This document shows positions 800-32,533 of a DNA stretch of 52,216 nt, in pieces (positions within the stretch are counted from its first letter, which is position 1; each line of letters starts with the position of its first letter). This DNA comes from Candidatus Thorarchaeota archaeon. Lineage in GTDB: Archaea > Asgardarchaeota > Thorarchaeia > Thorarchaeales > Thorarchaeaceae. The notes below the pieces were generated by a model. That model was not told the DNA's origin. It worked only from the letters and a program-made list of their open reading frames with translations, and did no database searches. The stretch spans positions 1 through 52,216 of the forward strand of contig JBHLRP010000019.1 in assembly GCA_048882485.1 (NCBI GenBank), read 5' to 3'. A program made the translations under genes and the position numbers.

Positions 800-820
800 A
801 TTGCACAGCCCAAAATGCAG

Positions 821-890
821 ATATTCATATTTAATATATTATATTCGTATATATTAAATAAGTTGAATGTACAAGAATATCTTATCTTAA
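821..890 (+). promoter_or_regulatory. AT-rich promoter region of the giant-protein operon, with a 12-bp perfect inverted repeat
   Basis: TATTTAATATAT (828-839) and ATATATTAAATA (849-860) are reverse complements with a 9-nt spacer. Both contain TATA-like boxes, ~90-120 nt upstream of ATG 948. Confidence 0.55.
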
Positions 891-947
891 GTTGTTGGTT
901 CAATTCTGTTGGTCCCGTATTTGCATTGCCTAGTGGGAGTTGTAAAC

Positions 948-18900: not shown

Positions 18901-20558
18901 TGGAAGATAGGGGAGTTGTTGCAGCTGAGGTCGGAATTGATTGGGAAGGAATCGAACAACAATCCAGGTATCTCATCGACGGCGTATATCAGGTATGGGT
19001 CAACACATCTCTAGTAAGTCCCGGCGTATATCCAGTGGTTGTCAGTTTCTGGAAGCAAAACTATGAAGCGGGTACTGGAGTCTTCACGCTGACAGTGAAA
19101 GAAGTTCCTACAGAGATTGTGGTCTACGCTCCATCGCAGTATCAAATCGACGGGAATGTCTTGAATCTTCAGATTCCGTATGGTGACAGCCTCCCGGTTA
19201 CTCTGTTCTATAATGACACTTGGTATAACCAAGGCATATCCAATGCTTCAGACCTCACAGCTGTGATTTTGCACCCATCAATTTCGGATAAAGACATCTT
19301 ATTGGTGTCCGATCTGTCATTTGGCAATTATAGTCTAGAAATTGATTCTTCTCAATGGGTAGTGAGTCCTACTCATTATCGAGTCGTCGCGAACCTCGGT
19401 CTTGAGAATCGGAGCAGAGCCACTCTCAATCTCTATATCACAATAATCAACATCCCAACGGCACTCACAGCTGAACCCGAAGAGATTCTGATGGGATATC
19501 TCGAAACTACCACCATACGAGTCTTCTATTACGACATATGGGAAGGCCATGACTATCGAGGAATCCCAGAGGGCTTCCTAAACGCCACTCCAAGTTCAAA
19601 TTATGTAACCATTGATGGATGGCAACCTGATCCCTTAAATCCTGGATGGTACGAAATCACGCTGAGTTCAGGATGGGCACGAGGTCCGGCAGTTATTCTC
19701 ATAGAACTAACAAAGGACAATCATGATTCTGCAGTAGTGTCAGTAGGCGTATCGGTGGAGCCGTCTGAGTTTAACCTACTGATTGAGAGATCTTTAATCT
19801 ACGGCCTACCATTTGGCGTTGTTTGCTTGATTGGTGCCATCCTCTGGTCCAGGCTTTTCAGTCTGCCAAAACGACTAAGAGAAATTCGCGGAATGGTGAA
19901 AGACATCAACCGAGGTCGCATTCCGAAGGTGCCTGATGGCGTCCAAAACAGAAGGGAGATACTTACTGAGCTCTTCAATGAAATCATAGAACCGATTGGG
20001 ATTGTCAGATCAGCGGATAGTATGCCTGAATACTCCTTGGTTGCTGAAGTTCCTGAGATGGAAGAGCTGTTAATTCAGCTATCCATCCTTACGCAGTTGA
20101 CACCAGAGGAGCTCGATGACTTCAGAGCAGATGTAACCAAAATGAAGCTCAGCGAGCAGGCTGCCTTCATTAAAGAAGTAATCAGTCAAGAAGTGATCAA
20201 ACGCGCCAAGATGGAGAAGAAGAGCATAGAGAAGATTCACAAAGAAACTCTGAAACAGGCAAGAGCACTGATTTCTGGAAAAGAGATTGTTCCTCCATCA
20301 GAGCCTGTAGTTAGTGAAGAGGAGGCACCTCCAAAGAAGACAGTACTAAAGCAGCCAGACCTCTCAAAAGCAAAAGATGAATTGCCACCAGAAATAGTCA
20401 GCCAGGATGAGATTGTACAGATTCGAAAGAGGCTGGTTGAAGCCGGTATTGGAGGACATGAATTAGAGACTATCATGGAGCAAGTCCAAGATCTTCCAAG
20501 AGATCTTGTTGAAGACCTCATCAATAGCATTCTCAAAAAGGGAGGTGACAAGCCATGA
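948..20558 (+). CDS. Giant type I membrane surface glycoprotein A (~6536 aa): signal peptide, N-terminal beta domain, DNRLRE/CBM96-like domain, 9 DUF2341+LamG-like jellyroll modules, long Ig-like stalk, one TM helix, ~230-aa cytoplasmic tail
   Basis: ORF track starts at TTG 909. ATG 948 is preferred: GGGAG at 935-939 precedes it and it gives a typical signal peptide MRKPAAALMLFIIFLLPSVG. Repeats YKKDIxIDHTKV..FPxLxDIYDxDL..DGDDI..HEIE..THAHLxAWVK..YYGN followed by GVWHL..DEVRIS..RS..WI..EY.NQ. Stalk repeats with GNGxYxxxIxT. TM RSLIYGLPFGVVCLIGAILW at ~19788-19850. Confidence 0.92.
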   Translation: MRKPAAALMLFIIFLLPSVGSPDFNGAIPFLDDVRNHENEYNDAGWQDASSGTGAPRPVDFQGMAVSSGTSVIDADHPWIVGIDPPLGWSSEQLETQLDHLSMWVDDVLVNPSLDANHEEHWILTDRPDYNYDPFYVPDGWTIIKKDAPPSGTGHPQHGYFELNGRSGEGYDASIGWRFDANWNTGAILDPTKGIYISQQIPAPWREVYSAEITFRYYISSLSNLDDTAHVFTRLEGYVTKHHVYEVGTPTDTWLQAKATVPASYLQSLETKDALLFDIGVGTDLSGNPPASATHEMYIDEIEFRLLVRPFPEEINLLANGARVTGSIQGSVSPYVPDGSNRDCYSAIDSNGGTGGVDLNGYSDFGWLDVGIDGMDWPSAFAYQVGLQFPLNVPQGATITSAILEIETPSGATGDPAVRVYAAAEDDVTAFTTGYPLLPDRYDWVNTSVFWNPTIAAPGRYNTPDLSALIQEVVSRPGWTSGNYICIMIDYAFSSGLTNYIQIKGSTGFPQGQLAQLNVDFTSPDPKDAIPSFRYNKNIVLDHRKVIANLQNFPVLVDIWDADLHLDVQPDGDDIAFLYDGQVIPHEIDVFDKLGNGTHAHLSAWVNLPYVSSTQDTTVVMVYGDGDIGSQEKTVDVWDSDYSAVWHLSENPAQPQWDSTYADYLPHQPQILDVTSHESSGSSYGSMTSNDLVDGFIGEAIDLEGSNDYLDFGNPTELQMNGAFTVEAWFYADYVDNDYLVVKSGESNYRGWDISFDNDPSISPAGWVMFRWSPDGVAMDLVGYERVDTAQWYHAVGVFSPSEYARFYLNGELVGEVTSGIPSTANDPNRPLRIGRRSDSAGATSYFDGIVDEVRISSIARSDAWIRTQYSNQRNPELFMTVSEEGVNFLYKKDIVVDHTKVASDLTSFPMLVDIFDIDLRTDVQADGDDIMFTSNGRSLPHEIELFDQQYNSTHAHLVAWVKADLSSVTDTIVTMYYGNPSIGSQESLAEVWSNRYTGVWHLAESSGNVQDSTSYGQEGIPLGGVSLGALGKIGYASDFGGIDGYINMGDPADGHLDFGLNSFTICIWLRIDASTGTWQVPLNKGHPSGLDSGYRFETNTLGQSIYFQISDGISYESTNSYSVTFGEWMHLVGRVDPSTNEMRLFKDGGYSGTVDISGIGSVSTTDNFTISRGLFSPNPVDGLIDEIRISSTALSDSWIITEYNNQYDPSSFYLVGAEKLVLPLEGQYKKDIVIDHTKVDSDLTGFPLLVDIYDTDLKSDAQADGDDIIFKSGTTFLPHEIEQFDQDYNSTHAHLVAWVKTDLSSTADTTVTMYYGNPEATNQENPNAVWDDNYWGVWHLGDTSGAAKDSTSGGADGTLMNGPTQAAAGRVGYGYDFDGVDDYLALQNANTQSSGTYSFWVYPHNYPPGPNSEVNFVGANAYYNRFSYYNGRIRIETATDAEYFNFASSSISNDTWYHMVFVRSGDFGDLYINGVWIEQVEVAGANTLTVNSIAGTDDLDRMVDGIMDEVRISGAPHSAAWVIAEYRNQYDPASFYSVGAETILQPIEFTYKKDITIDHTKVGADVMDFPVLIDIYDTDLRTDVQVDGDDIVFAKDGFVLPHEIELFEQSYNTTHAHLVAWVKTDLSASFDTAIRMYYGNFTAHNQENPSALWGSSNVGTWHLSEVGDGSPDEYIDSSQYNNHGQGGIGTPADVPTRIDGKIGYGQDFDGLGDVISLGTSDTLQPSSLTWSAWVRRTSSWASKRMALFYTKDTWNGPGWYVQIDDVSTGGPSIPRVLLMVVDGSNFFTYNGVPLDTLYPLNEWVHLAASFDSTTNAMALYVNGVAQPLQTFGTPDSITSTSDTKFVPGNSGLYVGSMDEVRVASIVRSPEWILTEYRNQNDSASFYTVGAEIFTQPIEFAFKKEIVVDHTKIAADLTDFPMLVDIFDSDLKTKVQADGDDIVFKISETLLPHQIELFDQTYNSTHAHLIAWVKADLSSSFDTTLTMHYGNQQAPNQENPAAVWSNSYMGVWHLAETNGDAIDSTSYGSNGALQGGVTQGAPGWVDGAYDFDGSTGRLAVGNPADGHLDFGVTQDYTLSCWIYLDTISNPDFLIAKRAGTGSTQIGYALAAAGGNEIVFEVADGVDEFMIRTTTDVSIPAWYYVTLVWDDDSTSATTIYINGMDDKSGTQGTLSSIDSIETTTGLSFGASITGGNPADGRIDEVRISSVARPSEWIAAEFANQFDPSSFFSTGSEIIIEPIEFSYRKDIVVNHTQVDADLTEFPMLIDIYDTDLKTDVQADGDDIIFKISDALVPHEIELFDQAYNLTHAHLVAWVKTDLSSIVDTTISMYYGSPQATNQEDPDGVWNDNYLGVWHLGETSGGSGAFKDSTSNSNHGTDAGAPTLGINGPIGKAILFDGVDDSINCGNGPSLNIAGDVVTLEAWAYLNEDIGPGWGSGIVVKYGSYEIFQDWDATRRITFSVTTTGTGQTWTSRTNNDINRWYHVVGVYNGTTTFIYVDGTEIASIPNSGTLAASASPLYIGLEDQYYDGRIDEVRVSKIDRSAKWILAEFRNQNDPASFYTVGYEITPQPEGFDYRKNITIDNTKVSSDLVGFPLLIDIYDTDLKTETQADGDDIIFKTGEVALSHEIELFDRDYNSTHAHLVAWVKTDLLSTSDTIVTMYYGNPEAINQEDPGGVWDTSYMGVWHLSEPSGNAQDSTLYQTHGTPSGLLTQGVSGHIGNAYYFDRDGLGTVNMGDPADGHLDFGNTDDFTIEFWVDLDYFYYYEPFLVSKRNGLASSSPGYAAFVSDDSNGYPGYSISSDGPQFGVDASSPVLNTGWRHVVYVFDQDSDTISTIYVDGIDDKISTWGTIGSVGSLQNSANFRLNGESSPTTDDMFDGMLDEVRISNIARSSDWILTEFNNQNNPSSFYSIGAAEFLGVAPEYNYMKNITIDHTKVISDLTDFPLLIDIFDTDLRTDVQPDGNDIIFKIGTTSLPHEIELFDQTYNSTHAHLVAWVKIDLSSSVDTTITMYYGNPSINNQEKPSDVWNSNYVAVWHFNQDPSSTSILDSTMNGYHLTAQGFGSDQRVYDGKLGTSISVDGIDDRFGVNSIAGPINDMTFQTWFMLDNAFPSGSDMHLLRGNSLTNNYPMIRFASSSGLIVTHMEVTSDVDETCTGSKSSWEADTWFQFAWVRSTAAVRSYHYVNGSLDAEDNSADNANPHLAWDQLMLLSDFSAGNMWGPGAISEFRILNVVLPPEWIAAEYANQNDPASFYSVGSEVQIVIPEQPSEPSLLDASGYKFSASSSVGVTIGFRTSLGIHTSGLSYTDDYLPGTSFSIVNDSLAIWTANVLVSPPPEIESISFELSYPEGEWYPFSVKSPSGIEKTFATDWTCFDGKLVVASTAIDEYGMWHIRFQDRNHVFDTQMGLSGGPYSPSGNFLIGEEIQFRIWSSGTMSSGISLDLTDPYGSTWYSGSATFQGQKFALPYSHRKYLTISHENVATDLVNFPVLVDIYDTDLRTDVRADGRDIAFAIGEETLAHEIELFDQTFNSTHAHLAAWVKVPLLSGSSDTAISMYYGNPIAPIVYDSGPVWDSGYLGVWHLAESGTGALDEYTDSSQYKHHGQGGEGQATYVPTQVSGKIGFGQDFNNLDGNYDLIDCGDSPLWNIDGYQLTLEAWVQHDITPNTHIYGIMNHKGWYNGYSLFINEGGVSTLKPVFNVQGETHQLVGANDVMGGSWHHIVATYDGSLMRIYVDGVQDPNVLQKTDAILPSTAEQGFWIGHGDQPKDVVWSAEYEGQIDEVRISDVARPAGWIETQFKNQNDPSSFFSISIEQSPGYSESAAITLDSSAQAGVWQATARYYDDGVNVDQSVGIFSRNFIVKRGASMSLTAPGDAVSDGISAKLIGEGLYVEFDLSDTLTSLPISGATMTMNWTVSGAPTQIQLNDYGDGSYGRVLNTTDLGTAQRWRIELTSSHQFYGDAFNVFFLDLSHQTYLTYEPPSAAPYGDDFTVKVTLRDSFNSQPLANAGFASNGTIIGAPVDYGNGTYLLTIDSSALSTGTHAFRFTATPADSYLLSSSIDVQFDYREVSTDAYALSSDPAEVPWGEQASVTIHWYDLDHSGIGIEGGTASIIPSVALQKADIGGGDYALTIDTSSYLPGAYVFDVTFSKANYEDATASVTVIVKAHSTSVSADYSASTPVGTSTYFDISFLDLDGGSVGIGVGNLSQVTLDWGSGPQAFFPYGFWLDTSAWSIGVYTINITVYATTAPRYYSDAKISVNLEIRKLEVYVSWEHLEPFPNGDDFVMFAHLNISEPGSSIDGDPINGLTQAYFTARNETGWQYTFESFASLGEGRYQLVIDQSNFLEGEYTIVVYVDFLPAESYHDSQTPVITFTYRPILTYLSSDDYPSVTTTYDTNVTITLNYVDIDNNVNITTGSIAAEGASITWQHLGNGVYEVLVIVQGWNLGTHEVNITADAPSYQAKTLTFEVLVQIAYAYARSSDSSIDLPLGDTAVFYMDYWDIIHDGPILDASIDHNWTHALTVIWTGSQYRVELPSLHTDSLGSYFILFNVSKGSNYQFGYFNLSLTLRTHYTEVRFGSAVEPTTYIGMVNVSLYYGDLDNDIGVASQYINVSVYGESGWIDSTLENDTASGDGYYIIRFPASILGESGIYNFTVYVNWTGPTQQFYNGIVRTSVNIIGEESELSLEDSPGPTPYLENMSYTYFYDELYSGVGISNATGDVFIFIEFVGESVDTSLVSILEGLPGYYTLEFNTTIFARPGVFTMVVQVNWSASASPFYDNRTDTISVRVIPRNTVVSVTPPDSTAYGINATFSFSYDDVSNAIPVKIPNDATMTVVVNLPDYSISYNSTTRQFHISFNTSVLGASLGNKQFTISITWIGSPFYANITARTIFITVANRETSFDFATPSPTPYGEMAAFTVTYMDAAGAIPSPINDGTIVLYNDSQPIPVSFYSYVPLGNGQYTIELNTSYFSRPNSYNLEIQITTPHFYYLDATGSRTLIVRYRITTLTAESAGIVSYNSSIPLVLRYSDLFSLAPISNSSLLTSIEILNGSSWIFTSDWRSVPQDYLVTVQTFNQILDVDTDYVLWIRFTYADAAPFYLAAETFVSFRLRERTTYLDVTESPLPTPYLDFVNFTVAYRDLESSTEIGGANIVLSIDAINLIEGTEYILQTSGDGIYHLSINTTAIGIPGVSKSLVVSAEWTSGAPYYTDSTISLTVSVVVRPASVRIIISPSQVRFLDNITFTFSYNDDNTDDFITLTKNMVSVYSGGSLLQSSDFTLSFVGNGYKIGINSIILSPDLVTNWNVTVFVDWSSTVPPYYSDDAASVGVTVVNRIGSVSLDNAPTTPIGDNMTLAFSYEDQDNGLGIGDAIVVFDCLNPSGLGENADFWIVRGVGPEFGEYTILVDTSKLSGVGLYTFSLRLQWNQSIAPYYRNTSEVFLIGSVRLIQSQLDYEDPIPTTVPINDNVSVVLTFTDSDHLLPIAGAENNISVTYKSDGSVPSIWSITVVVPGMYELVVNCTDAGSAGTNALVIQVDLSDYQFAEVQVPIQIRSRQGELTKVESPDAYFGEQTYAIVELVDIDASSAPIHDATLNLIWPETSSYVYIGNGMYNVTLDTTTLDADLYTLVVSAQKANYFIPEISISIRVQSIPTEVILPQTVPDVYWGESVSIWALFNDTRSGTLILGAAVNYQFGILSGSLAEGPPGNYSFTIDTGNLPLATTYLVSITARLDNYDTVSGQITVNILRLNLELTIVDGLNSQELYKGEPINITVFVRDVYNDVPLTGATVSATWVFDMTGVSLMPVPGMNGYYTGLIPTVAANTKTYSIVVSAEKTNYLTMTSPAEVNIRQILTKVNLDPLTETYSNQVFDWTDTIRIGVFVLAPSLNDTGLSNCTVTWSLSGTFLTGEFLNGSSIEGPGYFYFDFNTWEHNATTYTLRFTAYPLVGAYATSSNMTTIAIRLIQTTVESTFVAPKVWGWAGWVNLTYWNLLEDRGVVAAEVGIDWEGIEQQSRYLIDGVYQVWVNTSLVSPGVYPVVVSFWKQNYEAGTGVFTLTVKEVPTEIVVYAPSQYQIDGNVLNLQIPYGDSLPVTLFYNDTWYNQGISNASDLTAVILHPSISDKDILLVSDLSFGNYSLEIDSSQWVVSPTHYRVVANLGLENRSRATLNLYITIINIPTALTAEPEEILMGYLETTTIRVFYYDIWEGHDYRGIPEGFLNATPSSNYVTIDGWQPDPLNPGWYEITLSSGWARGPAVILIELTKDNHDSAVVSVGVSVEPSEFNLLIERSLIYGLPFGVVCLIGAILWSRLFSLPKRLREIRGMVKDINRGRIPKVPDGVQNRREILTELFNEIIEPIGIVRSADSMPEYSLVAEVPEMEELLIQLSILTQLTPEELDDFRADVTKMKLSEQAAFIKEVISQEVIKRAKMEKKSIEKIHKETLKQARALISGKEIVPPSEPVVSEEEAPPKKTVLKQPDLSKAKDELPPEIVSQDEIVQIRKRLVEAGIGGHELETIMEQVQDLPRDLVEDLINSILKKGGDKP
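2544..10720 (+). repeat. Eight tandem ~1-kb intragenic DUF2341+LamG-like units
   Basis: Unit starts at about 2544, 3612, 4626, 5595, 6645, 7674, 8667 and 9717 (period ~970-1070 nt), recognised from the conserved translated frame. Confidence 0.9.
11343..12380 (+). repeat. Ninth, isolated DUF2341+LamG-like unit
   Basis: YSHRKYLTISHENVATDLVNFPVLVDIYDTDLRTDVRADGRDIAF ... IDEVRISDVARPAGWIETQFKNQNDPSSFF. Confidence 0.88.
20541..20548 (+). promoter_or_regulatory. Shine-Dalgarno GGAGGTGA for protein B, inside the 3' end of gene A
   Basis: GGAGGTGAcaagccATGAtg: consensus archaeal SD 6 nt before ATG 20555, which overlaps the TGA of gene A. Confidence 0.85.
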
Positions 20559-23500
20559 TGTCCACTTATTCTAGCGTCGCCTCTTCGAGAATTAGGAATC
20601 ACACAAGGCGTATGCCATTTAGGCTTGTTATGATAGGAATGCTGATCCTGCTCTGCTGTCCCATTCCTGGATTCTTGCCCGCTCAGAATGGAGATAGGTT
20701 CTCATCATCTCAAGAAAGAAACACGAGCGTATTGGCTTCTTCGGGAGTTCAATCCTATGGAGGAAGCGGGGCCTCCCAGAGTGTGACACTGAATGGGGCG
20801 GTTTCCAATGATTCTCAAGGTATTGTTTTACTTGACTCATCGGCACCAACTCCGGCAACAATAAGCGGACCTCAGGGGTGGACCGGTACCTCCTTGAGCG
20901 GATCGATTAGCCAAATCTCAACTTCATTCCAACCAATTAAGAATGGGCTTCTTGACACATACCACACAGAACGCACCATTAATTCCGGTTCACCATGGAA
21001 TGCAATGGAGTATAATGTCCCAGATGAGTGGAGCATTATTGAAGAAGGTGAATCGACCATTCATCCATACTATGGACGCCTTTACTTCCATAGCTATTCT
21101 GGTTCAGGTCGAGACGGATCAATGGGATGGAGATACACTGCAACCTTCGGAACTACAAATGCCATTGATCCAAGCATGAAGTTGTATCTGACCCAGCGTG
21201 TGCAATTGCCATACAGAGAACTCTATGGGGCGCAAATATCACTCTACTATTATGTGCGAAGCCAATCGACTTTGAACGACTACTTCTACCTGTTTGTCCG
21301 AATGGGCAATTATGTGGCTAAATTACATCTATTCGAGTCTGGAGACCCTACTGATCAGTGGCTCCAGTATTCGGTGCAAGTGCCAATGTCTGCCTTTGAT
21401 GCATATCCAATACCTGGAACATTGGATGTCGACATAGGCGTGGGGACTGACTACTCTGGAACACCATCTTCTACTGTTGATCATCAGTTGTATCTTGACG
21501 AGATCGATGTAGTGTTGCAGGCAAGACCCTTTCCGGAGCAGATTGGTCTGAGTGCGAATCAATCTATAATCACTGGTTCCATTCCTGGAAGTGTTTCCCC
21601 ATATGTTCCAGACGGGGCTTCAAGAGATTGCTTCAGTCGCTCTGACACTGGAATCAGCACTTCCAGTGCGTTAGAGGTTGGTGTTTGGAGTTCCAGCGGT
21701 ACATCTTGGAATGATGTCATCAAATATCAAATTGGAATCCAGTTCCCATTGGATATACCTCAAGGCGCGATTATTACTTCTGCGGCGTTGGAGGTAGAGG
21801 CATTGGGGTACTGGGGTGGAGGGAATAATTCACTTCGAGTTTTTGTTGCAGAGGAAGATAATGTCGCACCTTTCACAAATGGGCTACCCAATCTGGAGAA
21901 TAGGTACACTTGGAGTAATACAAGTGTCGCATGGATCCAAGATACTTGGGAGAACTTTTTCAGATATAGAACACCAGACATGTCATCGCTTGTACAAAGT
22001 GTGGTATCCCGTTCCGGTTGGAGTAATGGGAACTATATCTGCATCATGATTGACTACATGAACTCTGACCAGTACCGCGATTGGAACTCTATACGGGGCA
22101 CATGGGGCTATGGCGGCCTAGACTTGGCTACATTTTACGTCGACTTCCTAGTACCTCAAGAAGACGACACTATTTCCATCCTTGAATACAAGAAGGACCT
22201 GACGATTGACCACACAAAGGTGAGCTCAGACTTAGAGGACTTCCCGGTATTGGTGGACATCTATGACAGTGACCTCAAGACTGATGCTCGACCAGATGGG
22301 AAAGACATCAAGTTCGTAATTGGCTCACAAACACTAGACCATGAAATCGAACTATTCGACTCTAACCATAATTCAACACACGCACATCTTGTAGCTTGGG
22401 TGAGGGTTCCTTTGATGTCTTCCTCAACTGACACAACTGTCACAATGTCATACGGAGCTCCAGATGGAAGCATCCCAGAAAACCCACATAGGATTTGGGA
22501 CGACTACAACAGCGTTTGGCACCTCTCAGAACAGTCTGGCAATGGCTCGTTCTTAGAAGACTCAAGTCAGAATTACCACAACGGCATGCCTGTCCAGACA
22601 ACCTTTATGCAGAACGCGAAAATTGGTGCTGCCCGGTACTTCCAAGATGCGGCTGGCAATTACATCCCCTTCATCGATGGTGATAGTATTCTTGACGGCT
22701 GGACAAACTTCCAGTTTTCCTTCTGGATCTACTTCGATTACGCAAGTGATGCCGAATGGACCAGTGTAGAGCCCAGAATCTTTGAGAAAGGCACAAGCGT
22801 CACTCTATGTAGAACATTCAGGAACCCAACAGGGTGGCCAGCTGGCCAAGCCTCGTTCCAGCCCGACATGCATTTTGATGGCGGATACACCAGCTACCTG
22901 AATGTGTTAGTGAAACGTCAGACTTGGAACTACATTGTCTACAAGTATGAGAGCACAGGAGACGGAACATTACATGCCTACAGTTATGCAGACGGCACAC
23001 TTACAGACTCAAAAGCTAATTCAGGTATGGGAGCAGGAGCCAAGCTGAGAGATGATCTAAGCATATTCTCTCTTGGTCTATATGGAGGAGGCCAAGTTCA
23101 CCTTGGAGGAATTGACGAGTTTCGTACAATAATGGGTTACAAGTCAGCCGACTGGATACAGACTGAATATGCAAATCAGTACGACCCATCCAGCTTTTTC
23201 AGCGTCGGCTCCGAGCAAAGTGTGCAATATGGACAAAACGCAACGCTGTTCTTCACCACAGATTCCTCATCTGTCGTAAGTATCCTTCCAAGAATGACTC
23301 TTGGTATCACCACTCAGGAAACCTCTCTAGATGCAAGCATGATTCCAGGGACATCATTCTCTGTTGCCAATGGAACTGAAGCAACATGGACTGCGAATAT
23401 CTTGATTAATCCTCCACCAGGAGTCGCCAACATCAATCTGACTCTTGACAAGCTCTCAACTTGGACGCTCCAGAGTGTCACTGACTCCTTTGATAACATA

Positions 23501-26500
23501 CGGACATCCGAAGTGACGAGCACAGCGACGCAAGTCACGGTTCCATCATCTGTTATTGATGTCTATGGCGTCTGGAGCTTTGATTTTACTTCCGCAAATG
23601 AAGCCAGTAATCTTGAATGTGCTGTTGGAGCCGGTATATATGAAATGACAGCTGTCGTGCAGTCAGGTCAGACATTGGACTTCAGAGGTACAGCTTCGAT
23701 CATTCCCGGTTCATCAATGAGACTTGCACTTGTTGATCCAAATGACCAGGTCTTTTATTTGTCAGATGATTCTTCTCAGGATGGAAGTGGGCAGTTTGAA
23801 TGGCTAGCTATTGCGGTTGATGGAACCTGGCCACGTGGAACATGGATTGCGTATGTTGATTTCAATGACACAGCTGGGGCAGTCCCACTTTACGTTGGCA
23901 GATACAGTAGAGAGTTCATTGTGAAACATACCTCATCCTTAGAACTTCAGGCACCCGGCGATGCGGTTGGAAATCAATTGTCTGTGAAGACAGCTGGCGA
24001 TTTATTGCTAGTCGAAGTGCATCTAATGGACACTGACACCTCTGAAAGCATATCAGGTTCCACAATGATGATGAATTGGACCATTTCAGGTGCACCGACT
24101 CAGGTGCAGTTGGAGGACTATGGAGATGGCTCTTATGGCAAGGCTCTGAACACCTCAGATCTTGGCCTCCCAGGGATGTGGAGAATCAATATCCAGTCAA
24201 ATCATCCCTATCTTGCTGACACATCGACATTCTTTGATTTGGAGTTGTCGCATCCTACATACTTAGCATATGAAACTCCAGAACCCACCGCTTACACTGA
24301 TGATTTCGCCGTCAAAATAACTCTCTATGATGCTATAAACGGCGACCCATATCCATCTGCTACTATCACCTCGAACGGGACGCTAGTTGGTGTCCCAACT
24401 GACTATGGAAATGGTACGTACTTAGTCCAAATCGACTCTGCAGGTCTGGAATTGGGTGCATATGGGTTCCAGATTGATGCGGCTCCAAGTCAGAGTTTCG
24501 TTCTTGGAAGTAGTGTAGATGTTGTCTTTCTCTATAGAAAGATCAGCACAGAGCTTGTTCAGATAGGAATGACCCCAATCAGTGTTCCCTGGGGCCGGAC
24601 TATCAATACCACACTAGAGTGGCAGGACTCTGACCATGGAGGATTGGGAGTTTCTGGAGGAACACTGAGCGGCGATGCCACATTCCAATACACTGACCTA
24701 TTGGATGGGACTTATTCCATTGAGATTGACGTTAGTGGCTACTCGGTTGGCACTTACCTGTTCAATTTCTCCATAGCCAAGTCCTACTATGCTATGGATC
24801 AAATTACAATTGCAGTGAGCGTTGTTCCGCATAGGACATCCATAGTCGCGACCTACAACAGCTCCGTCGCAGTAGGTACTAACATCTCCATCAGTCTAGC
24901 CTTCTACGATTTAGATTCGGGTAGTGTAGTAATTCCAGGTAACTTCTCATCAGTTCAAGCACAGTGGAGTGGCGGTTTAGCTCCATTTGGCACAAAGGAC
25001 TTCTGGCTCCATACTGACGGATGGGCTCTTGGCTCCCACACTTTGAATCTGACTCTGTTTGCTACAAACACGCCAAGATTCTATTATGATGCAAACACAG
25101 CTATCATCATAGAGATAAGAAAGGCTACAACAGAGCTCGATTGGACGCCGATTGATAGCTTTCCAGTGGGTGACGATTTCGAAATCACGCTTTTCTTGAC
25201 TGTGAATGAGTTTCTATCAATGTATAATGGCGACCCAATTAATGGCCTTGATATTAGCTATTTTGATGCAAAAGATAAAGATGGCACTCCCTATACAATC
25301 AAGAATCTCGTGTTCATTGGCAACGGAGAGTATCTACTGTCAATTGATCAGGCGTTCTTCTCAGTCAATGCTTATACAATTCGGATCTTTGTGACATTTG
25401 GAGTAGCAGAAAACCACACCAGCACTCAAACTCCCATCATCAATTTCGTATACAACCAGGCACGGAGCGAACTGACTTCTCCTGACTATCCCACCACGAC
25501 TACATCGTATAGCACAGACGCTTCAATCACTCTTGAGTTCATAGACATAGATCGTGGGCAGGGAATTGATACTGCAACCGTTACGGTTGAAGGTGCCACT
25601 GAATTGAGTGAGAACTGGATAAGTAGTGGTAGGTACAGAGTTGTAATTGATACATCAAGCTGGAGCATAGGAGTCTACACTGTGAACTTTACAGTTTCAG
25701 CTTCTACCTATCAGAGTAAGACCATCTCGATAGATATTCAGGTGCGGCAAATCAAAACTTATGCCATTTCAACAGTAGGTTTCCTTGACATCCCAATTGG
25801 TGATTCAAGGATTTTCTATGTCGATTACATGGATTTGGACCACGACACCACAATAGGACCCGGGGATGGTGCGAGCGGCTCATGCAATTGGACAGTCAGC
25901 CACTATGACATAACATGGACTGGAACTCGCTGGAAGGTCACCATCACGACCTATGATACAGATAGTCTTGGGTCGTATCTTCTCATGTTTGATTTCTCTG
26001 CTGGCTCTGAGTATGAGGTAGCCTACTTCAACGTGTCATTAGTCATTCGCACAATTGATACTGAATTGCGACTGGTCACACCTGCAGCACCTACAACGGC
26101 AACAGGGCAGTTACAGATAACTGTCTATTATGGAGATCGTGACCACACAGCTGGCATTGTATCATCAGATGTATCCTGTACAGTGAGAAATAGCACTGGA
26201 CTGCTTGCTATTTCATGGACCAATGGCTCAACTGCTGGCTATTATGATATCACCATCGATGCTTCGCAGTTTGGGAGACTCGGAACTCAACAGTTGACAA
26301 TTATATTCAATTGGACTGGGAGTATACAGAAATATCAAGATAAGTTCATTCTTACCACAGCCGAAGTAGTGGGCGAAGAATCTGAACTCGTATTGATTGA
26401 TGCGACTCCAGCCACTCCGTGTCTCGGCTATATGGATTACACCTTCCTATACATGGATTCATCAGGATCAGGCATCACTAACGACACATTTGATGTGTTC

Positions 26501-29500
26501 ATATACGTAGAATTCAGTGGTGTGAGTGTTGGCCTTTATCAGATTGACATCTTGGAAGTTGATAATATAGCTAATCCGGGCTACTACTCCATTGGATTTA
26601 ATAATTCTATTCTAGGCAGCACTGGCTTATTCTCGATGAGCGTGTTCATTAATTGGTCACAAGGTGCTTGGCCTTACTACACAAACCGGACAGATGTTAT
26701 TTCTGTAAGAGTTCTCCCCAGAGATACTCTGCTCTCCATTGTACCGCCAACCAGTGTTCCGTTCGGTGAGAACGCGACGTTTACATTCACATATGAGGAC
26801 ATTACTGGTGGATCCTCAAGTACCATTGACCATGACGCTGCAATGACTATTGCATTAAGTCTAGCTGAATTCTCATTATCCTATGACTCTATCGAAGGCA
26901 TATTCACAATCTCCTTTAATACGAGTCAATTCGGACCACCTTTGGGTGAAAGGACATTCTCTCTCAATGTGACATGGTCAGGCATTCCATTCTTTGCCAA
27001 TAAGACCGGTCAAGTGATTTCTGTAACAGTGACAGATCGACAGACAGTATTGACATATCCAACACCACCATTAACCTCCTATGGTGACAATGTGACATTC
27101 ACAGTAGTCCTCACAGATGTCGCCGGAGCAGCTTCAAAGGGTGTTGAGTTTGCGAGTATTAGTTTCTTTGATGGCGTAATTGAGATACCCCAAAGCTATC
27201 TCAACGTCTTGGAACTTGGACAAGGAGAGTATCTGATTGAACTGAACACATCCTATTATACAAACCCTGGTAGCTTCATGTTGGACATAGTCGCGACACC
27301 TGGATCATTCTACTATCTAGTCAAGACTGGATCACGAATGCTCAGCATTGATCCTCGAACGACGATATTGGTTGCAGAACCGCCAGGTAGTGTCGCCTAC
27401 AATACGTCTCTGACCATTGCCGTTCAATATTTGGATCTTAACACTCTAGACTCAATTGCTAACGAAACCAGCCTCTATACGCATGTAGAGATTCTCAATG
27501 GATCCGGTTGGATATTCACATGCGTATGGCGTCCATCAACACAGGACTACATGCTAATCGTGGAAACATACAACCAAGCCCTAAATGTAGGAACTCCATA
27601 CCAACTTTGGCTAAACTTCAGCACTGAAGACAAGGCACCCTTTTACGAGTCGGTGGAGATCTTGGTACCATTCCAGCTCCGAAACAGATATACTACTCTG
27701 GATGTTATTGATACCGCTCCTCCAACTAGCTATTCAGACCTAGCGAATTTCACTGTTGAGTACAAGGATGCTCTCTCTCTGGCTGGCATTGCAGGTGGAA
27801 CGATAGTCCTCTATCATGGACTCAGTCTCCTAAATCAGGGTGTCGATTATCAGATATCGACTGTAGGGGTTGGCAGGTACAAGATTTCTGTAGACACCTC
27901 TGTCCTTGGCACTCCCGGTATCAAGATAATCACAGTAATAGCAGAATGGTCTGGTGGTGCACCCCATTACAGCGACGCCTCTAGAAATGTGACTGTCTCC
28001 GTCATCGAAAGGCAGACAAGCATTGAGATAACTGTCCCTCCCTCAGCTACACAGTACCTCAATAACATGACATTCGATTTCGTATTCATGGATGTCGCTA
28101 CAAGACTGTCAATCGGAATTGTTGGCAGTGATGTCAGGATATTCAGTGAGGGGATACAACTAGGGACGCAGGATTATAGTATTTCCATTGCAGGCAGTGG
28201 ACTGCGCATCAGTCTTAACTCAACCATCATTAGTGCCTCACTAGTCAACAATTGGAATATCACCGTTGTAGTGGTTTGGACTGGAGGGGCTCCCTATTAT
28301 CAGACTGATCAATCTACTGTTTATATAGATACAATTTCAAGATTGGGCAGTGTAGAATTGGATCAGGTTGTGGATACCCCACTTGGTGACGATATCACGT
28401 TGGGTCTAACATTCTCAGACCAAGCCAAAGGCATTGGCATCACAGGAGCTTCTATTGTCTTTTCTTGTGAGGAAGTCTCTGGACTTTTGGAAGGCATAGA
28501 TTATTGGATAACTGCAGGAGTAGGACCAGAAGCGGGCAAGTACACAATAGACGTGAGCAGTTCATCTCTCGGAGATTTGGGTCTTTATAACTTCGTTCTT
28601 GCAGTAAGATGGAATCCGTTAGTTTCTCCATACTACGGTAATGTCACTAATCTGCAGATGGAAGCCGTCGTCAGAGCAATCCAGGTTTCACTCTCGAGTG
28701 ATTTGCCTACACCCTCTGTTGCTGCTTTCTATCAAAACATCTCATTCACAGTTACCTTCACAGATATTGACCACTCAATAGGTATATCCGGCGCAGAAGG
28801 AGCAATCTCCTTGACATATGTGTCTACAGGGACTGAGCCATCTATATGGTCTATCTATGTAATTGCTCCTGGTGCCTACAATGTTTCTATCAATCTCGCT
28901 GATAACCTTGCCACAGGACTTCAGTATATCAAAATCAATATCACACTGTATCCCTATCAATCAATAGCAACCCAAACCGCTGTTAGTCTCCGCAACAGAG
29001 TCGGAGGAATATCTGCTGATGTTCCAGCAGCCAATTATGCTGGAGAGCCCACTTATGTTCTAGTTTACCTAGTTGATGACGATGCTGGAGGAGTCCCTCT
29101 CAGTGGAGCAACACTCATTCTTGGGTGGGGTGACTTTGCATCATTCATAGATCTTGGTGATGGAAGATACAATGTGACTCTATTTACTAGCAATTTGGGC
29201 TTTGGCTCGCAGCCTCTGACGATAGACGCCATTCTGACTCATTACTCAATCAGCTCGCTTTCATTAGACATTGAGCTATTTGCAGTTACTTCTGAATTGA
29301 TTGTGACGTGGAGTGGACCGAGACCCTATTCTCCACTAGAGATTTACTGGGGAGAGCCTATTACAATCTACGCAGCTTTCAATGACACTCTAAGAAATCA
29401 GTTGGTCGCATCTGCTACTGTCATCTACTCATGGACAGCTGGATCAGATGTCTTTGGGCTAACGGGTATGCCAGGCAATTACACAGCAATTGTGGATACA

Positions 29501-32500
29501 AGTCCTGGTAGCGCTTATGACATGGTTATTATCGGAATAGAGGGACAAGCACCTAATTATCTAAACGCCTCCGCTCAGGTGTCATTCCAGCTGCTACCAA
29601 GGCCGATGGATGTGATTCCCGAAGATAGTAGATATTTCTTCACGGTGGACTATGGAGGACAGGCATCAATAGTTGTGTACCTTGAGGATTCTGAATCTGG
29701 GAGCAAGGTGACGGACGCCAATGTTTCAGCTAGATGGACATTTGCTAACCTGACTCTGACAGAAGTGCCTGGACAACCAGGATATTACTCAATCAATATG
29801 CCCACCATTGGTGCAACGTTTGGCACCTATGAGATACATGTTTCTGCCTTCAAGGAAAACTATGCGAATGCAACTGTTACCATCAGCATGAGCGTGTCCC
29901 AGATTAATTTGGAGATGTGGCTTGACAGTGCCACTGCTGCATACGAATACACTCCAGTCTATTGGTCGGAGGTAGTCAGAATTGGAGTTTACGTGCTAAC
30001 ACCTGCATTGAATTCTTCAAATCCCTATGCGACTGGACATTCTAATTGCACAGTAAGATGGTTCTCACCGGAGCTAGGGTTGAATGGAACTCTCTTGAAT
30101 GGTTCAATTATTGGAGGACCAGGATACTACTACTTCTTCTTCAACACTAGTGATAGCACAGCTTCGGTTCATAATTTTGTCATATCCGCAGAACCGCCTA
30201 ATGACGACTATACAGATGCTGAGAATTCAACAACCATCCTTGTAGAGAATCTCCCTACTGTCATTCAGTCACCGGGCTCCCCAGAAGTCGTATGGGGTTG
30301 GACAGGGTACATAAACTTCACCTACTTCAACACATACCACAGTGTGGGAATAGATGCGAATGTAGCTTCATATCAGTGGGCGGGAGGCTCTGGGGTACCA
30401 TATGACTTTGGCAATGGCGTCTATGGAGTTCCTTTGAACACCAGTACAGTTAGGCCAGGGACATATCGAATCACAGTAGGCTTCCAGAAGATTAACTATA
30501 ACGACCAACAGCTCACAATCGCATTAAGCATAGCCCCAGTGCCTACAGAAATAGTGGTCAACCTACCTGATGAATATCGGATAGGAAACACTTGGGAGCA
30601 ACTTCAGGTGCCTTATGGAGATGTCCTTAATGTTGTTCTCGTCTTCAACAACACTTGGGATTCACGTGGAGTATCCGGTGCTATATTCAATGAATCGGTT
30701 TATTCAGGACCTGGCTTCTTCGAGGAGCCCCTAAATCTAATAGCTGGAGAGGGTGGGAACTACTCCTTCGTGTTTGACACATCTCAGGGGACGCTATATT
30801 GGGAGTTCGAATTCAGCATTCGCTTCTCTTTGGAGAACTATTCAACAGCAGCCCTTACATTTGTAGTCACAATCGTTGAAATTCCAACAACAGCAGAGGT
30901 CTTAGGTCCATCAATATTCTCGCTTTCATACAGCAATGAAACAACATTCTGGATCCAATATTCTGACAATTGGCCTGGACATGGCGGCGAGGGAATCCCC
31001 GGTGCAACTGCCACCATCGAAATCACTAGTGAAAATCCTAATTTGGCGACAATTGAGTTCAGCGGGGAAGATGCAGCTAATCCTGGAATGTATCAATTCA
31101 AAGTAGTCAGCGGTGCGACACCTGGTGTCATCTATGTCACAATACACTTCAATAAGTCGAATTATGTATCAAACAATGTTGATTTGACAATCTCTATCAG
31201 TCCGTCTGATGCAGACATCATGATGCAGACAGCTATGACAGTAGGAAGTATATTCACACTCATCATCCTCCTCAGCGCCATTGTGTGGGTACGAGTTATC
31301 AGAGTACCAAAGATTATTCGTACGCTGAGTGCTCAAATCAGAAGTCTGCGAAGAAGACGAGTCCCGAAGCCAGCAGGAGAAGTATTGAGCAGACAAGAGC
31401 TAATAGCACAGTTATTCAGAGAGCTCACTGAAGACTTGAAAATCGACAAGAAGGCAGAGATGATACCGCCCGAATCGGTGACTGTCGATGTCCCTGAGAT
31501 TGAGCAGCTTCTCCTAGACTTGGCCATTTTGACAGACATGACTCCGGAGGAAATTGATGACTTCCGACGAGATCTCTCCAAGATGAAGCTGAGTCAGCAG
31601 ACCAACTTCATTACCGAGGTCATAAAGCAGGAAGTTCCTCGAGTTGCCCAAGCAGAAGAGAAGTCATTTGAGCAGGTGCTGGAAGATGTTCGGTTGGAGC
31701 GACAGAGGAGAATCGGTGGTGAAGCGGCACCGACAGTGCTTCCAGGCTTTGATATTGAAGCTGAAGAAGCAGCTCTCTTTGCTCCAATTGAGAAGCCCAC
31801 TGTGGACGAAGATCATCTCAGTGAGAAGGAATTGCAGGAGATGAAAACAGGCCTTCTTGAAAGAGGGCTTCCAATGCATGAGGTTGATGCTGTGATTGGA
31901 CAGGCCAGGAGCCTGCCCAAGGATGTGGCTGAGATGCTTCTCAAGAGCTTTGGTTCAGCTGTTGACATGCATGAAACTGAAGTAGATACGGCAAAGCTCA
32001 GCGATATGGAGATCGAGATGCTCAGACAGCAGCTAGCAGATGAAGGTGCCAGTGTAAAGGAAATTGATAAGATTCTAGAACAGGCACGAGAAGTCCCAAG
32101 AGCACTAGCAATGGAGCTACTTAAGGGATTCAGACATGAGCAGGAAACTAGGAGAGCAAAGAAGAAGAAGAAAGAGCCCGTTGAAACCATGTCTGAGGAT
32201 GATCTTGTTGCCTTAAGAGGCCGTCTTTTCATCAAAGGCACTCCTGAGCATGAGATAGATGCAATAATTGAGCAGGCAAAGACTGTGCCCAAAGAAATGG
32301 CTGCTGATTTCATCAGACAGGTTGAGGAAACATCTCCAGTTTCAGTTGCAGAGGAAATCGAGTTCGAGGACACCCTTGGCGAGATGGAAATAGAAGATTT
32401 GCGCAACGAACTCAAGAAGAGAAAGATTCCAGCAGTAGAGATTGAGGCGATAGTCGCACAGGCAAAGAACCTGCCTAAAGCTCTTGTGCAAGATCTTCTT

Positions 32501-32533: not shown

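What the first reader, a model, noticed from the sequence alone, without database searches (positions are those of the whole stretch)
31300..32533. Conserved, apparently unnamed cytoplasmic tail domain and ~60-aa helical repeat
Seen: both tails share a basic juxtamembrane helix (PKRLREIRGMVKDINRGRIPK / PKIIRTLSAQIRSLRRRRVPK). They also share a strongly conserved core (VPEMEELLIQLSILTQLTPEELDDFRADVTKMKLSEQAAFIKEVI / VPEIEQLLLDLAILTDMTPEEIDDFRRDLSKMKLSQQTNFITEVI). A repeat (L/M)SxxE(I/L)xxLRxxLxxxGxxxxE(I/V)DxIxxQAxx(L/V)P(K/R) occurs once in A (20397-20535) and four times in B. The core looks better conserved between paralogs than most of the ectodomain. Simple S-layer proteins or adhesins usually have only short tails. 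Inference: an intracellular docking or polymerisation platform, e.g. for cytoskeleton or signalling.
Basis: partly seen in the sequence, partly recalled or inferred. Interest (0 to 1): 0.7.

Follow-up and report, generated by a model that had tools for sequence, protein, structure and literature searches.

The report
Unnamed inner tail of Asgard surface giants
Two neighbouring giant surface proteins of a Thorarchaeota (Asgard) archaeon end inside the cell in a strongly conserved, so far unnamed helical tail, which probably ties the cell's sugar-coated surface rods to partners in the cytoplasm, though no partner has been shown.

Summary
Gene B (20555-32533, 3992 aa) and gene A (909-20558, 6549 aa) are type I membrane glycoproteins. 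After a single C-terminal membrane helix, each carries:
- a basic juxtamembrane (JM) motif;
- a ~55-aa core (62% identical between A and B, against 40% for the ectodomain);
- a variable acidic linker;
- a ~45-aa three-helix-like unit, once in A and four times in B, spaced 61-63 aa.

Charge and glycosylation-sequon asymmetry place the tail in the cytoplasm. It matches no family in Pfam, NCBIfam, the PDB (by sequence) or the ESM Atlas. I found no paper on it.

In this genome the JM motif, core and repeat occur only on nine paralogous giants. The whole tail is confined to the Thorarchaeota family and order (82 of 85, 1 of 1 genomes). The JM motif alone is found in 265 of 400 Asgard genomes.

No partner is shown. 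The downstream longin-GTPase is not stably linked. A cytosolic LRR protein directly upstream of A, facing an atypical Ras-like GTPase, is a conserved cassette and the best candidate.

This scan had already noted the same tail and JM motif on other Asgard genomes.

The parts
176..799 (+). 207-aa leucine-rich-repeat protein without signal peptide or membrane helix. It lies 109 nt upstream of A on the same strand and is a candidate cytoplasmic partner (context, not part of the tail).
   Evidence: Pfam LRR_8 E=8e-21; sequence. Orthologs are directly followed by an A-like giant in 9 of 11 genomes that could be judged.
909..20558 (+). Gene A, a 6549-aa giant type I surface protein.
   Evidence: ORF; N-terminal signal-like hydrophobic stretch; homologous to B along its length.
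19794..19859 (+). Single C-terminal membrane helix of A.
   Evidence: Hydropathy peak and sequence.
19851..20006 (+). Juxtamembrane motif of A: Pro-capped basic helix, G-[KR]-h-P, then a second helix with an invariant Arg.
   Evidence: Profile A3, E=7.8e-21; alignment.
20034..20198 (+). Conserved core of A (~55 aa).
   Evidence: Profile A6, E=2.9e-29.
20385..20537 (+). Single terminal helical repeat of A.
   Evidence: Profile A5, E=7.2e-19.
20535..20558 (+). A/B junction: Shine-Dalgarno-like GGAGGTGA inside A's last codons, with the A stop and B start overlapping as ATGA.
   Evidence: Sequence.
20555..32533 (+). Gene B, a 3992-aa giant type I surface protein.
   Evidence: ORF; signal-like N-terminus; orthologs of ~3990 aa.
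31232..31291 (+). Single C-terminal membrane helix of B.
   Evidence: Hydropathy and sequence.
31292..31444 (+). Juxtamembrane motif of B.
   Evidence: Profile A3, E=6.0e-18.
31472..31636 (+). Conserved core of B.
   Evidence: Profile A6, E=4.4e-28; 61.8% identical to A's core.
31637..31804 (+). Charged helix after the core, followed by a variable acidic/Pro-rich linker.
   Evidence: Low column conservation at profile positions ~120-160 in 91 tails.
31805..31957 (+). Repeat 1 of B.
   Evidence: Profile A5, E=8.1e-22.
31988..32140 (+). Repeat 2 of B.
   Evidence: Profile A5, E=9.5e-21.
32177..32329 (+). Repeat 3 of B.
   Evidence: Profile A5, E=1.0e-20.
32366..32515 (+). Repeat 4 of B. Of B's four repeats it is generally the most like the single repeats of one-repeat paralogs, though not against the C2_4162 repeat.
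   Evidence: Profile A5, E=3.0e-21; identity matrix.
31813..32571 (-). Antisense 252-aa ORF. Judged spurious: a Ser/Leu-rich mirror of the Glu/Lys-rich coding strand.
   Evidence: In the ortholog L017 and the paralog L002 no antisense frame over the tail stays open for more than 137 and 98 codons, against 239 here.

Best explanation
The region encodes the cytoplasmic tail of giant surface glycoprotein B; gene A ends in a matching tail.

The tail has four parts:
1. A juxtamembrane motif shared by large surface proteins across much of the Asgard phylum. It starts with a proline-capped basic helix directly after the membrane helix, then G-[KR]-h-P, then a short helix with an invariant arginine.
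2. A ~55-aa helical core that is largely specific to Thorarchaeota, with a diverged form in one other family (f14).
3. A poorly conserved acidic, proline-rich linker.
4. One (A-type) or four (B-type) copies of a ~45-aa unit whose conserved Gly and Pro positions suggest three short helices.

Most likely it is an intracellular docking platform. In this reading the JM motif sits at the inner membrane face and holds a common partner or acidic lipids. The core and the repeats, which are non-equivalent and conserved position by position, would offer one or four further binding sites, so a co-expressed A/B pair would present a multivalent surface to cytoplasmic proteins. The best candidate partner by gene order is the cytosolic LRR protein encoded just upstream of A, together with the atypical Ras-like GTPase transcribed divergently from it.

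Shown: anatomy, topology indicators, conservation, distribution and gene order. Inferred: any binding, the three-helix fold and the identity of partners.
For: Anatomy and repeats.

Cytoplasmic side: charge asymmetry, sequon asymmetry (574 in 30,819 residues vs 5 in 2,162) and a Glu/Lys/Arg/Leu-rich tail almost free of Trp, Tyr and Cys; signal-like N-termini.

Constraint:
- Invariant or near-invariant P3, K4, R7, P22, R31, then P65, L74, F88, K94, M95, S98, F103, E106, V107, I108, Q110, E111, then E169, L177, G181, E186, Q193, L197, L205 in 91 distinct tails.
- dN/dS 0.043 overall, core 0.009.

Specificity:
- In the own genome the JM motif, core and repeat occur only on the nine giants.
- Only 135 representatives among 1.84 billion proteins match the tail profile, nearly all of them at a protein's C-terminus; the exceptions are weak bacterial look-alikes.

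Distribution:
- Whole-tail profile: f1 82 of 85, f2 1 of 1.
- JM profile: 265 of 400 Asgard genomes. All source-named hits among 66 are Asgard.

Multivalency is kept: 41 of 176 tails have four repeats and 114 have one. B's repeats r1-r4 are orthologous to C76's r1-r4.

Co-expression: the A stop and B start overlap, with an SD-like site.

Candidate partners:
- The LRR gene is directly followed by an A-type giant in own, G375, G356, G343, G354, G365, G358, G320 and G333 (giant positions).
- The LRR and GTPase genes are divergent neighbours in at least 25 genomes of five genera.
- In one non-Thor genome (G006), a JM-bearing protein with a short tail overlaps by 8 nt a longin plus winged-helix gene.
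Against: - No interaction was tested.
- The other giant pairs with the same tail (contigs C2, C1, C44, C16) have housekeeping or unrelated neighbours, with no LRR or GTPase.
- LRR-to-giant adjacency fails in genus g9 (G329, G328).
- Adjacency of JM-bearing genes to longin/winged-helix homologs was seen for only 1 of 19 JM hits in five non-Thor genomes.
- The JM helix is clearly amphipathic in only 4 of 9 paralogs against shuffles.
- Among B orthologs the tail is no better conserved than the ectodomain, so conservation alone does not single it out.
- Conserved gene order may reflect descent only.
Confidence: 0.5

Rival explanations
1. Self-association module. The helical cores and repeats of neighbouring giants (A with B, or many copies) bind one another under the membrane. 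This would cluster and order the surface rods from inside, a sub-membrane lattice in place of an S-layer, with no separate soluble partner.
For: - The giants come as tandem, translationally coupled pairs.
- One-repeat and four-repeat forms are paired.
- Core and repeat occur on no soluble protein of the genome, so any homotypic binding would be tail to tail.
- Conserved hydrophobic positions fit a helical interface.
Against: - There is no heptad-type long coiled coil. The units are short and broken by conserved Gly and Pro.
- Many invariant polar residues (K94, S98, Q110, E111, E169, E186, Q193) are unusual for a purely hydrophobic self-interface.
- Not tested.
Confidence: 0.2
2. Biogenesis and anchoring device. 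The basic JM segment is a strong stop-transfer, positive-inside signal. The bulky charged tail would simply keep the C-terminus of a 4000-6500-aa exported chain in the cytoplasm, or recruit export or glycosylation helpers during synthesis, with no role afterwards.
For: - Net charge of +4 to +8 directly after the membrane helix in all nine paralogs.
- The JM segment is the most widely distributed part.
- In some lineages the tail is little more than the JM segment, for example G006 (~65 aa after the helix) and P0224/P0237 (29-33 aa after the JM).
Against: - A topogenic signal needs only a few basic residues. It does not explain invariant prolines, an invariant distal Arg, a 55-aa core at dN/dS 0.009, or four position-specific repeats kept across genera.
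- The tail is translated last, so it cannot guide early export.
Confidence: 0.2
3. Not a domain: a low-complexity Glu/Lys-rich spacer whose apparent repeats come from composition.
For: The tail is 15.8% Glu and rich in Lys, Arg and Leu. The repeat profile gives weak look-alike hits in unrelated bacterial proteins and designed helical proteins.
Against: - Position-specific invariant residues in 91 tails.
- Repeat-by-repeat orthology.
- dN/dS 0.043.
- Genome-wide exclusivity at E of 1e-14 to 1e-32.
Confidence: 0.04

Closest known systems
Eukaryotic single-pass adhesion receptors with adaptor-binding tails (integrin beta, classical cadherins, syndecans). The comparison is from general knowledge, not from a call.
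   Same: Type I topology, a large glycosylated ectodomain with lectin- or Ig-like modules, a conserved membrane-proximal segment followed by a variable stretch and a conserved distal module, and occurrence as pairs.
   Different: No sequence similarity was found. The organism is an archaeon. Partners and any signalling are unknown. The tail is longer (176-409 aa) and built of helical units found only in this lineage.
Asgard-wide juxtamembrane motif of giant surface proteins, noted earlier in this scan (e1-2537532, e1-5597581, e1-5555453, e1-5513024). I did not find it in print.
   Same: A and B carry this motif (profile A3, E of 1e-18 to 1e-21). I reproduced its wide Asgard distribution (265 of 400 genomes) and one case of a longin/winged-helix gene directly downstream (G006).
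   Different: The tail here goes on for another 130-360 aa with a core and repeats that are largely confined to Thorarchaeota, with a diverged core in family f14. The adaptor adjacency reported for other lineages was found for only 1 of 19 JM hits in my five-genome test, and for none of the five giant loci of this genome.
Archaeal S-layer-type glycoproteins with a C-terminal membrane anchor (for example haloarchaeal PGF-CTERM/archaeosortase substrates; recalled).
   Same: An archaeal, sequon-rich surface protein held by a single C-terminal membrane helix followed by basic residues.
   Different: No PGF-type motif precedes the helix. NCBIfam gives no sorting-signal hit. The protein continues for hundreds of conserved residues after the helix rather than ending there.
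Small three-helix modules (RecX three-helix repeat, RuvA C-terminal/UBA-like domains) and the helix-loop-helix of the polycystin-2 C-terminal EF-hand.
   Same: The repeat shares the pattern L-x-x-L-x-x-x-G-h-x-x-x-E-I-x-x-I. Bacterial look-alike repeats hit RecX_HTH1 (E=1.6e-6) and RuvA_C (E=1.4e-4). The repeat profile's best PDB hit is a 20-residue stretch of polycystin-2 (E=0.0011).
   Different: The tail itself stays below every Pfam cut-off (RecX_HTH1 E=0.13). No calcium-binding loop is present. The matches are short and could be convergent helix-turn patterns. The fold was not testable.
ROCO-type LRR plus Roc GTPase proteins. This applies to the neighbouring cassette, not the tail.
   Same: An LRR module and a Ras/Roc-like G domain are encoded side by side.
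   Different: They are separate, divergently transcribed genes. No COR domain was found. The P-loop is irregular (G-E-x-x-V-G-V-K/N-S) and G3 is degenerate.

Membership tests
Asgard giant-surface-protein juxtamembrane motif family (unnamed; profile A3 built here) | Directly after a single C-terminal membrane helix: h-P-[KWP]-x-h-R ... G-[KR]-h-P ... R | tested here: met
   Alignment of 17 sequences from 6 Asgard families has invariant P6 and P25 and near-invariant R10 and R34. A scores E=7.8e-21 and B 6.0e-18.
Asgard giant-surface-protein juxtamembrane motif family (unnamed; profile A3 built here) | Carried by a large exported, sequon-rich protein with an N-terminal signal | tested here: met
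   Signal-like N-termini. 1.26-2.86 sequons per 100 aa in the nine ectodomains, about twice the composition expectation.
Asgard giant-surface-protein juxtamembrane motif family (unnamed; profile A3 built here) | Encoded next to, or fused to, a longin/winged-helix adaptor (as earlier notes claim) | tested here: not met
   None of the five giant loci of this genome has such a neighbour. The own homologs lie on contig C3. It was found for 1 of 19 JM hits in five other genomes.
PGF-CTERM / archaeosortase-type sorting signals | Signature tripeptide before the helix, and the protein ends a few basic residues after it | tested here: not met
   No such motif in the translations. No NCBIfam sorting-signal hit at E up to 10. 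176-409 residues follow the helix in the eight complete genes (the ninth, C16, is cut by its contig end at 110).
UBA-like / RuvA_C / RecX three-helix domains | Pfam model match above the gathering score | tested here: not met
   The only trace is RecX_HTH1 at E=0.13 and 12.7 bits, against a cut-off of 26.
UBA-like / RuvA_C / RecX three-helix domains | Three-helix-bundle fold | not testable with these tools
Only the spacing of conserved Gly and Pro suggests three helices.
EF-hand (polycystin-2 C-terminal type) | Helix-loop-helix with a calcium-binding loop; family-level sequence match | tested here: not met
   A 20-residue match at E=0.0011 (domain E=0.17) with no loop. No EF-hand family in the Pfam scan.
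ESCRT-I steadiness box (Pfam Vps23_core, PF09454) | Match to the family model | tested here: not met
   A whole-genome search at E up to 10 gave one weak hit on contig C10 and none on any tail.
ROCO proteins (for the neighbouring LRR/GTPase cassette) | LRR, Roc and COR domains in one protein with canonical G motifs | tested here: not met
   LRR and the G domain are on separate genes. No COR hit. The P-loop lysine is shifted, or replaced by Asn in genus g12.

The most novel reading that the evidence does not exclude
The tail is the inner half of an archaeal contact receptor. Lectin-headed giant rods on the surface pass on binding or tension through the shared juxtamembrane motif and the multivalent repeats to a dedicated cytoplasmic module: the co-transcribed LRR protein with its atypical Ras-like GTPase and/or longin/winged-helix adaptors. 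This would be a prokaryotic forerunner of eukaryotic adhesion-receptor to small-GTPase wiring.
Probability: 0.15. Interest if true: 0.85.

Novelty: new variant of a known kind. Interest (0 to 1): 0.6.

Why it matters
Asgard archaea are the closest known relatives of eukaryotes, and they live in close contact with partner cells. How their surface talks to their eukaryote-like interior (small GTPases, longin proteins, actin, ESCRT) is unknown.

A conserved, structured cytoplasmic tail on every member of the main family of giant surface proteins gives that question a concrete, clonable handle. The handle consists of a phylum-wide juxtamembrane motif, lineage-specific binding modules, and a conserved neighbouring cytosolic LRR/GTPase pair.

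If a partner is found, it would be the first described transmembrane link of this kind in archaea.

Tried and rejected
**Known domains**
- Pfam and NCBIfam scans of both tails at E up to 10 gave only sub-threshold noise.
- PDB sequence-profile searches with the whole tail, the repeat and the core found nothing credible. The best hits were a 20-aa polycystin-2 stretch, designed proteins and PBP2.
- ESM Atlas gave no usable hit for A's tail or for B's repeats.
- Vps23_core (steadiness box) gave no hit on any tail.

**Core as a diverged copy of the repeat**
- hhalign aligns only 20-21 columns, at probability 66% and 37%. This is weak and left open.

**Longin-GTPase downstream of B as partner**
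- Synteny is kept in the same-genus genome G375. By coordinates it is also kept in G374 and G333.
- It is absent downstream of the B ortholog in G320, G365, G356, G338 and G343 (20 kb examined, except 8.4 kb to the contig end in G365).
- The own genome has about 30 small-GTPase paralogs, so proximity is weak evidence.

**Longin/winged-helix adaptor next door**
- Confirmed once (G006), but for only 1 of 19 JM hits in five genomes.

**Other checks**
- Soluble proteins carrying the core or the repeat in the own genome: none.
- Antisense ORF 31813-32571: not conserved.
- Expression: no RNA holder listed.

**Literature**
- Searches returned no paper on this tail or on Thorarchaeota giant surface proteins.
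- I saw only search listings and the starts of abstracts. No paper was opened.

**Pfam on whole protein B:** 0 families at E up to 0.01.
Full report
**What is there**

The window holds two giant ORFs on the + strand. A runs 909-20558 (6549 aa) and B runs 20555-32533 (3992 aa).

Both proteins start with a signal-like hydrophobic stretch. Each has a single hydrophobic helix near the C-terminus, at about 19794-19859 in A and 31232-31291 in B.

The finding's coordinates, 31300-32533, are therefore B's whole post-membrane tail. Names given by public sources to close homologs place the organism in Thorarchaeota (Asgard).

**Anatomy**

Aligning the tails of the nine paralogs in this genome shows four parts:
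- a juxtamembrane (JM) segment, S-V-P-K-x-x-R-x-I-x-x-x-I-K-x-L-x-K-G-x-V-P-K, followed by a short helix with an invariant Arg;
- a ~55-aa core, with consensus V-P-E-x-x-E-L-L-x-x-L-x-I-L-T-x-L-x-x-E-E-L-x-x-F-K-x-D-I-S-K-M-K-x-S-E-Q-x-x-F-V-K-E-V-I-x-Q-E;
- a charged helix and a poorly conserved acidic, proline-rich linker;
- a ~45-aa unit, L-S-x-x-E-L-E-E-L-R-x-x-L-x-x-R-G-x-P-x-H-E-I-D-x-I-I-x-Q-A-x-x-L-P-x-x-L-V-x-E-L-x-x-S.

Profiles built here place these parts as follows:

| Part | A | B |
|---|---|---|
| JM | 19851-20006 | 31292-31444 |
| Core | 20034-20198 | 31472-31636 |
| Repeat | 20385-20537 | 31805-31957, 31988-32140, 32177-32329, 32366-32515 |

B's repeats are spaced 61-63 aa apart. 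Conserved Gly and Pro positions split the unit into three segments of about 15, 13 and 12 residues, which would fit three short helices. This is inferred from sequence only.

**More than chance**

- BLASTP aligns two separate stretches of B's tail to A's single repeat; the second is at E=2.3e-10.
- B's four repeats match those of paralog C76 position by position (0.62-0.71 identity), while different positions share only 0.25-0.44. The quadruplication is therefore old, and the four copies are non-equivalent.
- Among 176 tails from public proteins and this genome, 158 carry the repeat: 114 once, 41 four times, 2 twice and 1 three times.
- In 91 distinct full tails many positions are invariant or nearly so, including polar ones: K94, M95, S98, Q110, E111, E169, E186 and Q193. 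The linker is variable.
- Against a same-genus ortholog, B's tail has dN/dS 0.043 (core 0.009, JM 0.029, repeats 0.035). dS is close to saturation, so these values are rough.
- The antisense ORF 31813-32571 is not conserved and is a compositional mirror of the coding strand.

Between A and B the core is 61.8% identical and the colinear ectodomain 40.1%. Only 1.5% of 2469 overlapping 56-aa ectodomain windows (1 of 45 non-overlapping) reach the core's value. That claim is right.

It needs two qualifications:
- A and B are homologous over nearly their whole length (B1040-3800 against A3794-6546, 39.5%), and all nine paralogs share stalk homology. The tail is therefore part of one protein family's architecture, not a module hopping between unrelated proteins.
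- Among 16 B orthologs the tail (0.46-0.87 identity) is about as conserved as the ectodomain (0.52-0.79).

**Topology**

In all nine paralogs the 20 residues before the helix carry net charge -1 to -4, and the 20 after it carry +4 to +8.

The ectodomains hold 574 N-x-S/T sequons in 30,819 residues, about twice the composition expectation. The tails hold 5 in 2,162.

The tails are 15.8% Glu, rich in Lys, Arg and Leu, and almost free of Trp, Tyr and Cys.

Together with the N-terminal signals, this indicates a type I protein with the tail in the cytoplasm.

**Is it a known domain?**

No.
- Pfam and NCBIfam give only sub-threshold noise at E up to 10.
- PDB sequence-profile searches with the tail, the repeat and the core give nothing credible. 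The best hit is 20 residues of the polycystin-2 EF-hand region at E=0.0011.
- The ESM Atlas gives no usable hit.
- The ESCRT-I steadiness-box model finds nothing on the tails.
- Weak bacterial look-alikes of the repeat (a FliK-like protein with eight copies, among others) hit RecX and RuvA_C three-helix models. That fits a small helical unit but proves nothing for the archaeal repeat.
- The core and the repeat share about 20 alignable columns around L-[ST]-x-x-E-L-x-x-[FL]-[RK] (hhalign probability 66% and 37%). This is weak support for a common origin.
- Seven literature searches found no paper on this tail. I saw listings and abstract starts only.

**Distribution**

The tail profile finds only 135 representatives among 1.84 billion proteins, nearly all of them at a protein's C-terminus. 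The exceptions are a few weak bacterial look-alikes with internal repeats. Many of the hits are contig-end fragments.

In 400 Asgard genomes the whole tail is confined to the own family (82 of 85) and its sister family in the order (1 of 1). Weak partial hits occur elsewhere. These are the JM segment alone, or JM plus a diverged core in family f14.

A JM-only profile of 17 sequences finds 265 of 400 genomes:

| Family | Genomes with a match |
|---|---|
| f1 | 83/85 |
| f22 | 124/135 |
| f14 | 17/19 |
| f21 | 10/14 |
| f28 | 3/3 |
| f29 | 4/4 |
| f8 | 0/31 |
| f10 | 0/12 |
| f11 | 0/22 |

All hits that carry a source name are Asgard: Thor-, Prometh-, Hod-, Hermod- and Odinarchaeota (66 hits, most of them unnamed).

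In the own genome the JM motif, core and repeat occur on the nine giants and nowhere else at significant E-values.

The tail is therefore an Asgard-wide JM motif extended by modules found mainly in Thorarchaeota.

**Context**

A's stop and B's start overlap (ATGA at 20555-20558), and a GGAGGTGA lies in A's last codons. This points to coupled translation.

The giants come in tandem pairs. In G375 the order is B2 (- strand), a 439-aa Ras-like GTPase (+ strand), a 207-aa LRR protein (- strand), then A (- strand). The own contigs C16, C76 and C19 therefore most likely form one locus of about 62 kb with four giants.

The LRR protein (window 176-799) has no signal peptide or membrane helix. It sits 109 nt upstream of A.
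- Its orthologs are followed directly by an A-like giant in 9 genomes: own, G375, G356, G343, G354, G365, G358, G320 and G333, from genera g1, g12, g6 and g10.
- They are not followed by one in G329 and G328 (g9). G327 ends at a contig edge (with giant positions).
- LRR and GTPase are divergent neighbours in at least 25 genomes of five genera.

The GTPase has an irregular P-loop. Its lysine is shifted, and is Asn in genus g12. G3 is degenerate, while NKTD and ETS are kept.

By contrast, the longin-GTPase 9.5 kb downstream of B is syntenic only in the same genus, plus by coordinates in one g10 genome. It was not found downstream of the B ortholog in five other genomes (20 kb examined in four, 8.4 kb to the contig end in G365). 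The other giant loci of this genome have housekeeping neighbours.

**Testing leads from earlier notes of this scan**

Earlier notes had already flagged the same tail in other Thorarchaeota genomes. They also described an Asgard-wide JM motif said to sit next to a longin/winged-helix adaptor.
- I reproduced the wide distribution.
- I found one clear case. In G006 a JM-bearing protein with a ~65-aa tail overlaps by 8 nt a 279-aa gene. That gene is homologous to two own-genome proteins on contig C3 and to the C-terminal half of the window's longin-GTPase.
- In five non-Thor genomes, only 1 of 19 JM hits lies next to a hit of that adaptor profile. None of the own giant loci does.
- The adjacency therefore does not hold generally with my profile.
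- The steadiness-box lead was negative here.

**Interpretation**

Shown:
- a conserved, lineage-restricted, unnamed, very probably cytoplasmic tail with a phylum-wide JM motif;
- a family-specific core;
- one or four position-specific repeats;
- coupled A/B expression;
- a conserved cytosolic LRR/Ras-like cassette upstream.

Inferred: the tail is a docking platform. In this reading the JM segment acts as a common membrane-proximal dock or lipid-binding helix, and the core and repeats act as further binding sites, with the LRR protein and its GTPase as first candidates.

Rivals that the data do not exclude are tail-to-tail self-association that orders the rods, and a mainly biogenetic or anchoring role. 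A mere charged spacer is disfavoured.

**Verdict**

The object is a new, undescribed domain arrangement on a receptor-like archaeal surface protein, already seen by this scan on other genomes. Interest is moderate to high, because it gives a concrete bait for finding how Asgard cells couple surface to interior.

Noticed in passing
window 20535-20558: A's conserved C-terminal K-G-G-D-K-P is encoded by GGAGGTGACAAGCCATGA. This contains a Shine-Dalgarno-like GGAGGTGA and the overlapping stop/start ATGA for B. The conservation of these last residues in A-type tails (G213 0.92, G214 0.90 in 91 tails) may be an RNA-level constraint rather than a protein one.
   Followed up: partly
window 176-799, and own contig C76:74-1411 (L058): A cytosolic 207-aa LRR protein lies upstream of A, with a divergently transcribed ~440-aa Ras/Roc-like protein beyond it. 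This conserved split LRR/GTPase pair recurs in at least 25 genomes of five genera. The GTPase P-loop is irregular (Lys shifted, Asn in genus g12) and G3 is degenerate, so it may be a pseudo-GTPase or an atypical one.
   Followed up: partly
own contigs C16 (48224-64345), C76 (1527-11339), C19 (= window): By comparison with the continuous contig G375:C8, these three contigs appear to be one ~62-kb locus: A2 (5374+ aa), B2 (3271+ aa), GTPase, LRR, A, B. The assembly breaks fall inside the giant genes.
   Followed up: partly
window 20555-32530: Protein B (3992 aa) has no Pfam family at all at E up to 0.01, although it is conserved at ~50% identity across many genomes. Its whole ectodomain is unannotated sequence space.
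   Followed up: no
L045 (G006:C246:726-3878), ORFs 1462-3153(-) and 630-1469(-): In a non-Thor Asgard genome, a JM-bearing surface protein with a short tail overlaps by 8 nt a 279-aa longin-like plus double winged-helix gene. That gene is homologous to own C3:128893-129807 and 129876-130733 and to the C-half of the window's longin-GTPase.
   Followed up: partly
own contig C3:128893-130733 (L075:4894-6737): A tandem pair of ~290-305-aa longin-like/winged-helix proteins. The same tandem arrangement recurs in many Thorarchaeota genomes in the hit list. They are unlinked to the giant genes here.
   Followed up: no
core start, window 20052-20072 (A) and 31490-31510 (B), approximate: The core begins with P-E-x-x-x-L-L, which fits the eukaryotic acidic-dileucine pattern [DE]xxxL[LI]. 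64 of 91 tails have it there, and tails average about one such pattern in total. It probably lies inside a helix and is likely coincidental.
   Followed up: partly
proteins P0153, P0163, P0165: Public protein clusters in which a Thorarchaeota tail repeat is fused to an N-terminal part that looks like an unrelated housekeeping enzyme or membrane transporter (judged by eye from the sequences; no domain scan was run). These are most likely assembly or gene-calling chimeras.
   Followed up: no
protein P0173: A bacterial FliK-type hook-length protein (Flg_hook E=2e-19) carries eight look-alike L-x-x-L-x-x-L-G-L-x-x-x-x-I-x-x-I repeats. These weakly match the archaeal repeat profile and RuvA_C.
   Followed up: no
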